A DNA stretch of 64,000 bases, from positions 6,510,001 through 6,574,000 of the forward strand of contig OZ365112.1 in assembly GCA_977030845.1 (NCBI GenBank), read 5' to 3'. This stretch comes from Fimbriosthenelais zetlandica. Taxonomy: Eukaryota. Below, one piece after another: positions 24,001 to 30,000 of the stretch; position 1 is the stretch's first letter; the number at the start of each line of letters is the position of its first letter. Made by a program: the position numbers.

Positions 24001-27000
24001 TTCCTCAGCATAGCTTATTGCATGTGTGTAACCAAGGTAATGCCAACATGCTAGTGGTTTTGGGGGGTTATCTATTAGCTATGGAGGTAAGGATGAGGGT
24101 CAATCATCATCATAAGCATGCAGAGAAATAAATGTCTTTGTACCACACACGTAGCTACTCAGGATAGAGTAACTTCATATTAAATGGATTAAACATTGTA
24201 ATATCCCTTACATATTTACTGGGGTATTTTCCAGCCTATTCGTCATGGTTATTGTCAGGATAATCACAGAAAAAAACATTTTTCTGTGTCTATGGCTGTG
24301 CTATCTTTGGAAGGGAACACGCTATGAGGCATAATTCAGCACGGTTATTTTGACTGATATGCTGGGGGCGTATCATATGCATGTTATTGATCAGCTTCTT
24401 CATTATATGTTATTGGCAGGTTTCTTAACCAGCTGATAATGTGCCCGCATCATGTTTACTCGCAGAATACCTTAATCTATATCTCCAACATATTGTTGGC
24501 TCTTGATTAAAATCACTAGCCAGGATTCCCTACTAAATATAGAATGGAATATGCCCCAGAGGTGGATGAGAAAAAAGGTTCATCTCGACCTCCATTCAAA
24601 CTAATTATAATATGCTTTCTCCAGTTGATCAATTGGTTTGCAAGAACTGACATTCCTGCGATTGGATGCCCACTTTCTCCAGCAATTATTTGGACTCTGG
24701 AAGAAATAACATTCCTGCGATTGGGTCCCAAGGGAACACTGAGAATAGCCAAATGTTTGGATATCCTGTAAAAGTGTAAATGAGTGAAAATAGAGTTAAA
24801 CGTACCTGAGATAGATGTGAAGAGCACCATGAATGTCATCATTAAGTGTGGTAAAAAGTCTCGCTGTGCCATGGTGACGTCATCTACAGAAGGTGGCCCT
24901 CAGCCCAGGGTTCATAGAGAAGCAGTTAGCGGCGTGTCGTCGTCTCTGTCCGTTTATGTCCCTGCTATCTGTCTGATAGTGACAACGACAGGCCGACTTG
25001 GAGATGATGTTTAGGACACTACCATCCACCAAACTCACAACACTACTAGGTGGAACACCTGTATTAGATTTCACTTGATGGTTTTTATGTCTACCTGTCC
25101 TGTTCTTGTCGCTGTTGCTGTTGGGGTGATGATGATGGTTGCTGTTGTTGCTCTTGCTGCCCGATGTTGTGTCTGAGGATGTTGCTGTTGTTTCTTTTGT
25201 AGTTGCGACCCGTACCTGCATAGACTCGGAGAGGGTTAAGAGTCCAGCCATAGGATCTGAACCTGAGGCAATCCGAACTTGTCATGGGGCGGTGGATGTG
25301 TTGTGGATGATAAAAACGAGTGAATGTGTGGTGGGGGATATGTAGACAGGGAAGGTGGAGGGGTGTAGGTATAGTAGAAAGGTGGTTGTACTTTGGGGGG
25401 CTGGGACCTGGGACTTATTTACCCTGAAGTGGGAGCTACCGCCTTTTAGTGACTCGTATCGCGCTAGTGCGGGATTCGTCTTTGTTTTTATAACCAGATA
25501 TAAGCGGGGTTCAGTAGAGGAGAAAGTGGTTATTACAGAAGTTAGGGAATGGTGAGTTTTCTTATAATCATTTTTCTATGCATCCATTATTTTCTTTCTT
25601 TACAGAGCGGAATGAAGATCCATGGTGATCATTTCTGGCTAATCTTCAGACCAGAAAGAAAGGGATTATATTTAGGGTCTTCCCACAGCATGTCCTCCTC
25701 CGATATCATATTATCTTGGCTTAAGCACTTGCTCCTGGGGAATTCTGTATTTAAAATTAATCCTTCACTTATAATCCCCGGCTCTGGCTTTTACCCTCCG
25801 GTCGACTCAAAAATGCACACACAAGCTAAAACTACCGGCGATTGGAAGATGATATAGACCACAGGGAAAGAATCCTCGAATGGAAGATCTCTTGTCTATC
25901 GCCAACTTATGTTGAGGAGAAAAGTATTCATTATTCTACTGCCCAACACCAGCACAAGTGTCACTACTTGTAGATAGGTGTAGACTTGGGTTATATATAG
26001 GTACAGTGTCCATAATGTCTATGTCACAATCTTCAATGTTATTCTCCCGCGGGTATTATCATTGTGATCATATGTAGGTGGCGTGAATATGAAAAAATCT
26101 CCCTTAGTGAAGCTGGAGTGTTAGTGAAAGGAGCCAGATGGCAATTGTTGGTGAAATGGGCCAGGTCAAAGCCAATAGCCGTCAAGCTGACTCTTCCACG
26201 ACTCCTCCTTCCTCCATACACACCAGTGCTATTCTGTGGATTTGCCCGGCTATGCAGATTATTGGCAAGGATTTCTTCTATTCGAGATTTAAATCATCCA
26301 CGCTTTTGGATCTCAAATCTGAAAGATGAGGGAAGATAGAAATGGTGATTAGAGTCATGTCAATGTTAGGATGAGAACAGGAATGGACAGTAACCTTTTG
26401 GATACTCTGATTACTTCGAATGAAAGCTTGAAATGAGCGATATCATGAAAAGTAAAGATGATACAGATCTATGACTGCACTTAAATTTCCTGATTGTTTT
26501 CAACTTCTATGGATATGTACAAGAATTAATAGACACCTTTGACTTAAACTTTTTCCCATACAATACCGTACTATTACACAATAGAATAATTGAATATTAT
26601 ATAAATAGAAAATTCTATACATTGGAAAATATAGTATATCTAAATATAGAAAACCATACGGCATTTCCAGATAAATCCAATTAATTCAATTCCCAAGGAG
26701 TTAAATCTAAATGCAGTATTTTAAAGGTCAATGCATTGCGAGTTTTTTTCTCCCATGAGAAACAGAATAATACTGATTTAAGATGCACTAAAATCAGTGC
26801 ATGAAAACGTGTGCATGACGAGTGAGTACAACGAATGCATCATCAGGCAGGGGCCCGTCTTACTGAGACAAGGTTGTCAGTGAAACGGAGAGAAAGAAAC
26901 AAAAAACAAGGACCAGAGCTCGTGATCTCATGGGGATCAGTACGAAATTAAATTTCATGATTCGCCGATTCGTTTCTCTCAATTGCCCTCCTCTCATTAG

Positions 27001-30000
27001 GATTATTGGATTGAATTAATTTTGATTCGAATTAGACCCGGGACTAGTAGGATTACTTCAAAGGAACTGGGTGTGTATTTGATGTTAATAATAGATGACA
27101 AGTGTTGCGTCTTCATTAGACAAACATGCCAATGGGGAAGGGTGTATAATGCATTCAGGCACTCTTGTATAATTTACTGGAATCCAGCAAACTGTGATTG
27201 AGGAGGTATGATGAGTCGATTGACTGGCCCCAGGGTCAGCCAAAAATTGACTGCAATATTTTTTTAGTCTGTAGAAGAATAATGTTAAAAATGATATTTT
27301 CAATTGGCGAGTGAATAAATCATGGTACAATGAATGGAGAAATGGATGGAGTACCAGCGTATGAATCCCCAGAAGGTAATGGCGACCGTGAGCAATTAAA
27401 ATAGAGCAATTGGATTAGAAGCCACAGACTGGGTCAATTGCTGGAGGAAGGGCAAACAAAAACACTGCCTCACAATCTGTTTGCACGTCCATTGATCTGT
27501 CTATTTATCGAGTCACTGCCTAACACTACTAACAGGCAAAGGGTGTGGAAGGGGTTTGTATGATTACAATAGAACTGGGTTCTTTTCAGGAAAAATTAGT
27601 CAGATTTGCAAGGACAACACTGCTTCTTTTATATTGAAGATACACATATTTCAAGGTCCTGATATATTTGCAAATGAACAATTTCGATTATTGGTTTCGG
27701 GACTACCCAAAGACCAAGAAGCAAAAGGAAAAACATATATCTTTCCAGTGATTGTAATCGATTGCCAACTCATAGAAAAATCCGTTTTGTGTAGTGGGAG
27801 CTTTGAACAGGGAGATATGTCCATCAGATAGGACATTTCGCATGCCAGGGCAGCTCCAATGCTTGTCTTTGGAAGGAGAGGGAGGCCCTGCCATCGTCCT
27901 ATCACCAGCCTTGCAATCTGGCCTGGCAGAGGCTAATGTCAATCGCAGGCTCCCCTCCTCATCTCCCTCATGCACCCAGCCATAAAACTTTCAGGGCCAT
28001 CTTTTGCAAGCCTTTAGGGATCGGGCGCCAAAGATTCAACAGTGCCGCGGCATAGCGGGGTACATTAGTGATTTATCTTCTGTAGGCATGGCTGTGGTGG
28101 CCGGGCTTACTTCTACATAGCAACGCATGATGAGAATATGAGGGTTTAGGATGCTTGAGGGGGTTGGGGGGTAGGGGGTAGGGGGTAGGTGTGTATATAT
28201 AGGTAGGGTGATTTAGATGTGGGATAGGTAAGGATAGGGGTATACAGATAGATTTTTTTGCGGGAACAGCTTCGTTATAATGCAAATTACAGCAGTGATT
28301 TATTAGAAGGAAGGGAAAGTAATCATGAAAAGAAGGGTTAAAAAGTTACACTGCATGGTATTCAGGGAGTCATTATGGTGAAAAGGTGAGATCTTGGAGG
28401 GTACGGCAGCTTAGGAAGCAAATGGTTAAACAGGGATATATTATGGAAGAGGATACATTGCCGGGATAATGGAGAAATAGTGAGATAAGATGGGATGGAC
28501 AATGATAGAAGACAAGGCCACGAATATATTTTAATCAAGGGATGGCATTCTGACACTGATGGACAGAGGCGATATGTGGCCTATTATTGGAAGAGCAATA
28601 ATGCAAAAGCATGGTCCTCGCAATAACGCAATAACTGTTACTTTTCATTCACTTGTCCGATTTGATACAACACTTTTGCCATCCTCCATTTTGTCAGTAC
28701 CTCCGGGGAAATATCCCTGATTGGTATTCATGATGTCCTGCTTGCCAATGTCAGTATTAAAGAGGCAATTTATAATTGTAAGCTTTAGCAGTAGACATGA
28801 TCGGTGGACCTATCTGGATGATGCAAAGCCTCTATATTGAAATGGGAAACGGATGTGATTTACAATGACAAACTTGTCCCATAGGAAGCATGGCAAGTGA
28901 AGAGGGAGTGGCTAGTGGCAGGTTTAGTCCCCTTTCTCTCTAGGTGGGCATCCCTTTAGACTAACTCAGACATGCAATGACACACTTTAGTACAGGAAGA
29001 ATACCCTAGAATTACTAGGATTACTAGAATTTAAGATGCACTAAAATCAGTGCATGAAAACGTGTGCATGACGAGTGAGTACAACGAATGCATCATCAGG
29101 CAGGGGCCCGTCTTACTGAGACAAGGTTGTCAGTGAAACGGAGAGAAAGAAACAAAAAACAAGGACCAGAGCTCGTGATCTCATGGGGATCAGTACGAAA
29201 TTAAATTTCATGATTCGCCGATTCGTTTCTCTCAATTGCCCTCCTCTCATTAGGATTATTGGATTGAATTAATTTTGATTCGAATTAGACCCGGGACTAG
29301 TAGGATTACTTCAAAGGAACTGGGTGTGTATTTGATGTTAATAATAGATGACAAGTGTTGCGTCTTCATTAGACAAACATGCCAATGGGGAAGGGTGTAT
29401 AATGCATTCAGGCACTCTTGTATAATTTACTGGAATCCAGCAAACTGTGATTGAGGAGGTATGATGAGTCGATTGACTGGACACGAATATATTTTAATCA
29501 AGGGATGGCATTCTGACACTGATGGACAGAGGCGATATGTGGCCTATTATTGGAAGAGCAATAATGCAAAAGCATGGTCCTCGCAATAACGCAATAACTG
29601 TTACTTTTCATTCACTTGTCCGATTTGATACAACACTTTTGCCATCCTCCATTTTGTCAGTACCTCCGGGGAAATATCCCTGATTGGTATTCATGATGTC
29701 CTGCTTGCCAATGTCAGTATTAAAGAGGCAATTTATAATTGTAAGCTTTAGCAGTAGACATGATCGGTGGACCTATCTGGATGATGCAAAGCCTCTATAT
29801 TGAAATGGGAAACGGATGTGATTTACAATGACAAACTTGTCCCATAGGAAGCATGGCAAGTGAAGAGGGAGTGGCTAGTGGCAGGTTTAGTCCCCTTTCT
29901 CTCTAGGTGGGCATCCCTTTAGACTAACTCAGACATGCAATGACACACTTTAGTACAGGAAGAATACCCTAGAATTACTGTCGCATGCTCTTACACACCT

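What the first reader, a model, noticed from the sequence alone, without database searches (positions are those of the whole stretch)
26776..29979. A1-X-B1-A2-B2 split direct repeat: non-autonomous PAT/Ngaro-type element or a fresh complex duplication
Seen: two unrelated blocks (A 452 bp, B 498 bp) each occur twice, apparently without mismatch, in the order A1...B1 A2 B2, around a 1.29-kb unique interior X (27228-28518). Known: this split-direct-repeat order is the diagnostic end structure of PAT/Ngaro tyrosine-recombinase retrotransposons, which integrate without a classical TSD. Inference: X shows no RT, RNase H or YR ORF, so if this is an element it is a ~3.2-kb non-autonomous one. The competing model is a tandem duplication of ordinary A-X-B DNA whose second copy lost X, or an assembly artefact.
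Basis: partly seen in the sequence, partly recalled or inferred. Interest (0 to 1): 0.65.

Follow-up and report, generated by a model that had tools for sequence, protein, structure and literature searches.

The report
Fresh local duplication mimicking a retrotransposon
Two blocks of non-coding DNA are each repeated exactly in the order typical of tyrosine-recombinase retrotransposons, but the details fit a very recent local copying error better, so it is probably ordinary.

Summary
A (452 bp) occurs at 26776-27227 and 29029-29480. B (498 bp) occurs at 28519-29016 and 29482-29979. Both pairs are 100% identical, in the order A1-X-B1-A2-B2 around a 1,291-bp X. This order is the published split-direct-repeat layout of Ngaro/PAT/VIPER elements.

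Nothing else supports an element:
- None of the 28 ORFs of at least 48 aa over the locus has a Pfam domain.
- The longest ORF of X has no relative among 1.84 billion proteins.
- The window holds no other copy of A, B or X.
- Base composition matches the surrounding DNA.

The new joints look like copying slips. The 12-nt B1-A2 spacer is a 9-nt stutter of the end of B (P 0.0002). Short identities sit at both pairs of breakpoints (P 0.028 and 0.089). No junction trinucleotide is shared with the outer ends.

I rate a recent replication-type duplication with loss of X from the second copy at about 0.55, a protein-less Ngaro/PAT-like element at about 0.2, and an assembly artefact at about 0.12. Genome-wide copy number, the decisive test, could not be run here.

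The parts
26776..27227 (.). A1, first copy of block A (452 nt)
   Evidence: 100% identical to 29029-29480. It holds a 14-nt unit x2.1 at 26790-26818. CpG o/e is 0.77, from 14 CpG.
27228..28518 (.). X, the unique interior (1,291 nt), non-coding
   Evidence: Single copy in the window. It has no Pfam domain in any ORF of at least 48 aa. The longest + strand ORF (27496-27828) has 0 relatives. A 7-nt microsatellite lies at 28158-28189. The tetranucleotide GGCC straddles both of its ends.
28519..29016 (.). B1, first copy of block B (498 nt)
   Evidence: 100% identical to 29482-29979.
29017..29028 (.). 12-nt spacer between B1 and A2 (the new B-to-A joint)
   Evidence: Its first 9 nt match the last 9 nt of B1 at 8 of 9 positions. 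Its last 3 nt, with the first 3 nt of A2, start a third unit. Period-9 matches are 13 of 18, null P 0.0002. TRF reports period 9 x 2.9 copies over 29006-29031.
29029..29480 (.). A2, second copy of block A
29481..29481 (.). Single base between A2 and B2 (the new A-to-B joint that omits X)
   Evidence: It differs from both 27228 and 28518. blastn extends the B pair by 3 nt with this one mismatch (28516-29016 vs 29479-29979, 99.8% over 501).
29482..29979 (.). B2, second copy of block B
26771..26775 (.). TACTG immediately left of A1
   Evidence: The same 5 nt recur at 29976-29980, which is the last 4 nt of B2 plus the first flank base. Empirical P is 0.028 for at least 5 nt within +-2 offsets.
29976..29980 (.). 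TACTG across the B2/right-flank boundary
   Evidence: sequence read

Best explanation
This is a very recent local rearrangement of ordinary non-coding DNA, not a mobile element. The ancestral locus was flank-A-X-B-flank. During replication or break repair the growing strand reached the end of B and slipped on B's last 9 nt, adding one near-copy and the start of another. It then re-primed at the start of A through a 3-nt overlap and copied A again. It next skipped X between two GGCC tetranucleotides, leaving one odd base, and ran on through B into the right flank. Two separate recent events, a tandem duplication of A-X-B followed by deletion of X from the second copy, would give the same result. 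Shown: the exact repeats, the stutter, the short identities, the lack of coding capacity and of other copies in the window. Inferred: the ancestral state, the order of the steps and the enzyme pathway. I recall the names for this class, replication slippage, FoSTeS/MMBIR and polymerase-theta end joining, from knowledge; no call produced them.
For: (1) There are 0 differences in 950 compared bases, so the event is young. (2) The B1-A2 spacer is not random. It is a period-9 stutter of the end of B: 8 of 9 identical, 13 of 18 period-9 matches, null P 0.0002, and TRF finds 2.9 copies. The last partial unit overlaps the first 3 nt of A2. (3) TACTG lies just left of A1 and again at the B2/flank boundary (P 0.028). 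GGCC lies at both ends of X (P 0.089). (4) 0 of 28 ORFs of at least 48 aa overlapping the locus have a Pfam domain. The longest ORF of X has 0 relatives in the word-indexed protein set (near lengths only) and 0 at E<=0.001 among 1,835,955,588 representatives. (5) The window has no other copy or fragment of A, B or X. No retroelement protein domain appears in any of its 510 ORFs of at least 48 aa. (6) CpG o/e of A+X+B is 0.48 against 0.53 and 0.44 in the flanks. The 4-mer spectrum is ordinary: 75% of 102 other windows lie at least as far from the background.
Against: Neither new joint is the simple product of the short identities. The B-to-A joint carries 12 extra nt in place of the shared G. 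The A-to-B joint differs by one base from a clean GGCC-mediated loss. The microhomology P values (0.028, 0.089) were found after looking and are modest. The idea that the spacer was copied from a 10-nt match inside A is not significant (P 0.093). The A1-X-B1-A2-B2 order is exactly what a split-direct-repeat element would show, and 100% identical A and B pairs are reported for such elements. A tyrosine-recombinase crossover at a short shared core would also leave TACTG at both ends. Copy number in the genome is unknown.
Confidence: 0.55

Rival explanations
1. A roughly 3.2-kb protein-less (non-autonomous) member of the split-direct-repeat tyrosine-recombinase retrotransposons (Ngaro/PAT/VIPER type). 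It would be copied through RNA by the enzymes of an autonomous relative elsewhere in the genome. The B1-A2 joint would serve as the template that restores the element's ends in a circular intermediate. Integration would be by recombination at a short shared core, without a target-site duplication.
For: The order A1-[interior]-B1-A2-B2 with identical pairs is the published diagnostic layout (passages). A Xenopus Ngaro family has A 236 bp and B 152 bp, each pair 100% identical. Non-coding relatives are in print. T. cruzi SIRE corresponds to the A2+B2 region of VIPER, and Chlamydomonas TOC1 is called a non-autonomous DIRS retrotransposon. There is no classical TSD. TACTG at both outer boundaries could be a crossover core. 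A begins with ATT, the commonest terminal trinucleotide of DIRS1-like elements. Short tandem units lie near both ends of the A-B unit.
Against: The interior has no trace of gag, RT/RNase H or recombinase and no relative anywhere. The window has no second copy, no isolated A-B unit and no retroelement protein. In the published model for DIRS1-like elements the same 3 nt sit at the internal junction and at both ends. Here the bases flanking A1 and A2 on the left differ (G vs A), those flanking B1 and B2 on the right differ (A vs G), and a 12-nt stutter fills the internal joint. A crossover at TACTG would predict an internal joint of B-G-A, which is not what is there. Composition is that of the neighbourhood. 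Caveat: I could not read the primary description of Ngaro termini (not held), so the junction rule is taken from DIRS1-like elements.
Confidence: 0.2
2. An assembly artefact. The true locus would hold fewer copies or a different order. For example, two alleles with and without X could have been laid in tandem, or a single tandem repeat could have been mis-resolved.
For: Perfect identity of both pairs is what two alleles or a mis-traversed repeat graph would give. The two copies differ only by presence of X and one base.
Against: There are no N runs or gaps anywhere in the window. The B-to-A joint, with its own 12-nt spacer, and the A-to-B joint, with its own base, are sequences that exist nowhere else in the window. 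Reads must therefore have carried them, which implies a real B-to-A adjacency. No read data could be examined.
Confidence: 0.12
3. Two tandem copies of a 951-bp A-B unit, with X as a later insertion of another mobile element into the first copy.
For: A2-B2 is contiguous apart from one base. GGCC on both sides of X could be read as a 4-nt target duplication.
Against: By eye, X has no terminal inverted repeats, no long terminal repeats and no poly(A) tail. The repeat finder lists no inverted repeat and only six short two-copy direct families of 13-21 nt, the kind the tool warns are often chance. X has no protein domain. The uninterrupted copy reads GGAC, not GGCC, at that site. X has no other copy in the window.
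Confidence: 0.05

Closest known systems
Ngaro / PAT-like / VIPER split-direct-repeat retrotransposons (order DIRS)
   Same: The repeat order is identical, A1-[interior]-B1-A2-B2, with A1=A2 and B1=B2. There is no classical target-site duplication.
   Different: There is no gag, RT/RNase H or tyrosine recombinase, the interior is only 1.29 kb, and no other copy is in view. The internal joint carries a 12-nt stutter, and no short junction motif is shared with the outer ends. A and B (452 and 498 nt) are longer than the one example whose sizes I read (236 and 152 nt).
Non-coding derivatives of such elements: SIRE of Trypanosoma cruzi and TOC1 of Chlamydomonas
   Same: They are protein-less sequences carrying the terminal repeats of a tyrosine-recombinase retrotransposon (passages).
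   Different: SIRE is described as the A2+B2 region alone and is highly repeated. Here the full A1...B1-A2-B2 set is present and only one copy is known. I read no sequence of either, so no direct comparison was made.
Complex tandem duplication with internal loss (replication template switching / microhomology-mediated repair; names recalled, not from a call)
   Same: The duplicated blocks are colinear with adjacent DNA and perfectly identical. One new joint has a short stutter insertion, short identities sit at the breakpoints, and composition is ordinary.
   Different: The joints are not the clean products of the microhomologies. The single-locus status is unproven.
DIRS1-like elements
   Same: They integrate without a TSD and commonly begin with ATT. 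Block A begins with ATT.
   Different: [quoted passage not shown] No inverted repeat was found in the locus: 0 pairs with seed 12 and minimum 30 nt, and 0 pairs with seed 9 and minimum 13 nt.

Membership tests
Ngaro/PAT/VIPER-type split-direct-repeat retrotransposon | Repeats in the order A1-[interior]-B1-A2-B2, with A1=A2 and B1=B2 | tested here: met
   452 and 498 nt, both pairs 100% identical. Definition taken from passages.
Ngaro/PAT/VIPER-type split-direct-repeat retrotransposon | Interior encodes gag, RT/RNase H and a tyrosine recombinase (autonomous form) | tested here: not met
   0 of 28 ORFs of at least 48 aa over the locus have a Pfam family. The longest ORF of X has 0 relatives.
Ngaro/PAT/VIPER-type split-direct-repeat retrotransposon | For a non-autonomous form: an autonomous partner in the same genome sharing the A/B ends | not testable with these tools
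   No eukaryotic genome DNA collection was open. Within the window, none of 510 ORFs of at least 48 aa shows an RT, RNase H or recombinase domain.
Ngaro/PAT/VIPER-type split-direct-repeat retrotransposon | Several copies at different loci with different flanks, or isolated A-B units | tested here: inconclusive
   There are 0 further copies in the 64-kb window. The rest of the genome could not be searched. Two 24-nt probes found 0 matches in prokaryotic genome contigs, which is uninformative for a eukaryote.
Ngaro/PAT/VIPER-type split-direct-repeat retrotransposon | The same short junction motif at the internal B1-A2 joint and at both outer ends, and no TSD. This rule was read for DIRS1-like elements; the primary Ngaro paper is not held. 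| tested here: not met
   the base left of A1 is G and left of A2 is A. The base right of B1 is A and right of B2 is G. A 12-nt spacer fills the joint. The absence of a TSD is met.
DIRS1-like retrotransposon | Inverted terminal repeats plus an internal complementary region | tested here: not met
   0 inverted repeat pairs in the locus.
LTR retrotransposon or solo LTR | The same repeat at both ends, TG...CA termini and a 4-6-nt TSD (features recalled) | tested here: not met
   The left-end block (A) and right-end block (B) are unrelated. The termini and flanks read show neither TG...CA nor a TSD.
Local complex duplication (duplication plus internal loss) | Single locus; relatives carry one A-X-B | not testable with these tools
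   The only evidence is from the window: no other copy.
Local complex duplication (duplication plus internal loss) | Slippage or microhomology signatures at the new joints | tested here: met
   Period-9 stutter P 0.0002 (TRF). TACTG P 0.028 and GGCC P 0.089. The templated-insertion variant is not significant (P 0.093).

The most novel reading that the evidence does not exclude
A young, entirely protein-less 3.2-kb split-direct-repeat element with unusually long A and B blocks (452 and 498 nt). It would be copied in trans by an unseen tyrosine-recombinase retrotransposon. Its internal circle-junction template would carry a 9-nt iterated motif instead of the 3-nt junction described for DIRS1-like elements, and its outer ends would share a 5-nt core with the target.
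Probability: 0.2. Interest if true: 0.45.

Novelty: already known. Interest (0 to 1): 0.2.

Why it matters
If it is a local duplication, it is one more young structural variant in a gene-poor stretch. Its main use is as a caution: the A1-X-B1-A2-B2 pattern that annotation pipelines take as diagnostic of Ngaro/PAT elements can also arise from a duplication that loses its middle. Repeat order alone should not be used to call such elements. If it proves to be a mobile element, it would add a protein-less member to a sparsely documented group. I read of only two such cases, SIRE and TOC1. The phrase search found 2 papers holding any of five wordings for non-autonomous DIRS/Ngaro elements, and 1 was listed. 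It would also mean that an active tyrosine-recombinase retrotransposon exists in this genome.

Tried and rejected
- **X as an intron, with A2-B2 a processed copy.** Neither strand has the usual intron ends at the X boundaries (GT...AG rule recalled; boundaries read). Rejected.
- **X as a nested transposon.** It has no inverted or long terminal repeats, tail or clean target duplication. Kept only as a 0.05 rival.
- **DIRS1-type inverted repeats or complementary region.** None found.
- **LTR reading.** The end blocks are unrelated.
- **Spacer copied from a 10-nt match inside A.** Not significant (P 0.093; coverage by 8-mers P 0.22).
- **Degenerate older copies of B left of A1 or of A right of B2.** Local alignments found only trivial matches, scores 20 and 22.
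- **Structured RNA.** Rfam at gathering threshold found 0. In E-value mode there was one chance-level hit in the window (E 0.71) and one in the locus (E 1, 20 bits against a 52.5 gathering score). tRNA: 0.
- **Identifying the host through a gene.** None of 510 ORFs of at least 48 aa gave a credible domain. In one search, 7 of 145 listed a family: 4 lie in the 45-nt tandem array with no stretch passing on its own, and 3 fall below the curated cut-offs. In some searches, 0 of 365 listed any.
- **Exact look-up of 10 locus ORFs in the 15-billion protein set.** 0 of 10 found.
- **Translating 15-kb frames whole for Pfam.** ORFs were scanned one by one instead.
- **Not used.** The two remaining word-indexed protein searches and the ESM Atlas, because one search suggested ORFs of this locus are not in those sets. 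ORFs within A and B were therefore not searched for relatives.
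Full report
**Observation.** The repeats are exactly as described. Extending the matches base by base gives:
- A1 26776-27227 = A2 29029-29480 (452 nt).
- B1 28519-29016 = B2 29482-29979 (498 nt).

Both pairs have no mismatch, and the repeat finder and blastn agree. The unique interior X is 27228-28518 (1,291 nt). B1 and A2 are separated by 12 nt (29017-29028), and A2 and B2 by one base (29481). The whole structure spans 3,204 nt. The window has no N, so no masked stretch bears on this.

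**Junction anatomy.** I read the six boundaries as they stand.
- The base left of A1 (G) differs from the base left of A2 (A). The base right of B1 (A) differs from the base right of B2 (G).
- The 12-nt spacer is not random. Its first 9 nt match the last 9 nt of B1 at 8 of 9 positions. Its last 3 nt, together with the first 3 nt of A2, begin a third unit.
- Across the joint, 13 of 18 period-9 comparisons match. Only 0.02% of 20,000 random spacers of local composition reach that. Tandem Repeats Finder independently reports period 9, 2.9 copies, over 29006-29031.
- TACTG lies immediately left of A1 (26771-26775) and again across the B2/flank boundary (29976-29980). The empirical P for at least 5 nt within +-2 offsets is 0.028.
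- GGCC straddles both ends of X (P 0.089). The A2-B2 joint differs by a single base from what a clean loss between those two tetranucleotides would leave. blastn accordingly extends the B pair to 501 nt at 99.8%.
- Neither joint is the simple product of these identities, and the two P values were obtained after looking. I treat them as modest support.
- A 10-nt match of the spacer region to a site inside A is not significant (P 0.093).

**Coding capacity and relatives.**
- I scanned every stop-to-stop ORF of at least 48 aa in the window against Pfam. There were 145 ORFs of at least 75 aa and 365 of 48-74 aa (150 + 150 + 65).
- Of the 145 longer ORFs, 7 listed a family. Four lie in a 45-nt tandem array at 7.1-8.1 kb with no stretch passing on its own. 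Three fall below the curated cut-offs. None is a retroelement domain.
- None of the 365 shorter ORFs listed any family.
- The 28 ORFs that overlap the locus gave nothing.
- The longest + strand ORF of X (27496-27828, 111 aa) has no relative in the word-indexed protein set (lengths 61-195 aa only). It also has none at E<=0.001 among 1,835,955,588 representative proteins of any length.
- Ten ORFs of the locus are absent from the 15-billion protein collection by exact look-up (0 of 10).
- Rfam finds nothing at gathering score and only chance-level matches in E-value mode. There is no tRNA.
- The locus has no inverted repeats.

**Context.**
- Apart from the A and B pairs, the window's self-comparison shows only one 125-nt pair at 74% identity and two copies of a roughly 220-nt foldback element.
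- This near absence of interspersed repeats, together with a CpG o/e of 0.49, is why I do not take the window for human.
- I could not name the organism.
- CpG o/e of A+X+B (0.48) lies between that of the two 5-kb flanks (0.53 and 0.44). A alone is higher (0.77, from 14 CpG).
- The 4-mer spectrum of A1-X-B1 is ordinary for the window: 75% of 102 other 2,241-nt windows lie at least as far from the background.
- I found no protein-coding virus-like stretch anywhere in the window. The only virus-like feature is the repeat order itself.

**What is known.** I read passages only, through the find mode.
- The order A1-[ORFs]-B1-A2-B2, with identical pairs, is the stated hallmark of Ngaro, PAT-like and VIPER elements (PMC4157794; PMC8547959; PMC9210276; PMC6681497; PMC13465315; PMC3783388).
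- One Xenopus family has A 236 bp and B 152 bp, both pairs 100% identical.
- Isolated A-B units occur in Cafeteria.
- SIRE of T. cruzi corresponds to the A2+B2 region of VIPER.
- TOC1 of Chlamydomonas is called a non-autonomous DIRS retrotransposon (PMC9940879).
- For DIRS1-like elements, the same trinucleotide, most often ATT, sits at the internal circle junction and at both ends. Integration is by recombination at that trinucleotide without a TSD (PMC3266345; PMC7192593).
- The primary Ngaro paper is not held, and supplements were closed. I therefore do not know whether that junction rule holds strictly for Ngaro/PAT.

**Weighing the models.** The repeat order fits an element perfectly, but it is the only feature that does.
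- An element of this kind predicts an interior with at least remnants of its genes or a relative elsewhere. It predicts further copies or isolated A-B units, and an internal joint that mirrors the outer ends. The first and third predictions failed here. The second could be tested only within 64 kb.
- A crossover at TACTG would explain both outer boundaries. It would then require the internal joint to read B-G-A, whereas 12 nt of stutter stand there.
- A replication-type rearrangement predicts perfect identity, a new B-to-A joint with slippage or short overlap, a new A-to-B joint near a short identity, ordinary composition, and a single locus. All of these that could be tested are met, though not cleanly.
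- An artefact is made less likely by the absence of gaps and by the two joints having sequences of their own, but no reads could be examined.
- My weights: local complex duplication 0.55, non-autonomous split-direct-repeat element 0.2, assembly artefact 0.12, X as a later insertion into a tandem A-B pair 0.05. The rest is unassigned.

**Limits.**
- The decisive test, copy number and flanks of A, B and X in the whole genome and the state of the orthologous site in relatives, could not be run. Two 24-nt probes there found nothing.
- ORFs lying wholly within A or B were not searched for relatives.

**Verdict.** The feature is real and exactly placed. It is most likely a young, ordinary structural duplication that imitates the end structure of tyrosine-recombinase retrotransposons. 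Interest is low unless genome-wide data show further copies.

Noticed in passing
window 7143-8048: A 45-nt tandem array, 20.8 copies at 87% matches, with a 174-nt higher-order period. All reading frames stay open across it. This produced spurious Pfam hits such as Consortin_N and DUF5816, with no stretch passing on its own.
   Followed up: partly
window 38364-38632: A 22-nt tandem array, 12.3 copies at 82% matches.
   Followed up: no
window 49028-49272 and 58480-58702: Two copies of a roughly 220-245-nt foldback (self-complementary) element, MITE-like. They are 95% identical over 216 nt in opposite orientation, and each matches its own reverse complement at 71-73%. A 9.2-kb stretch lies between them.
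   Followed up: partly
window 15451-15567 and 44607-44725: A 125-nt dispersed repeat pair at 74% identity. Apart from the foldback element, it is the only other interspersed repeat in the window.
   Followed up: no
window 50492-51169, with 34-nt repeats at 50689-50758 and 50819-50904: The longest non-array ORF of the window (226 aa, minus strand) lies over two short 34-nt tandem repeats. It has no Pfam domain and reads as low-complexity, not as a gene.
   Followed up: partly
window 40077-40173: A (GA)n microsatellite, 49 copies.
   Followed up: no
window about 29995-30035: A G+C-rich, partly palindromic stretch begins some 20 nt to the right of B2, in contrast to the A+T-rich end of B. It has no tRNA and no Rfam match.
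   Followed up: partly
whole window: There is no credible protein domain in any of 510 ORFs of at least 48 aa, no tRNA, and no Rfam family at gathering score. The window is a 64-kb gene-poor, repeat-poor stretch with CpG o/e 0.49.
   Followed up: yes
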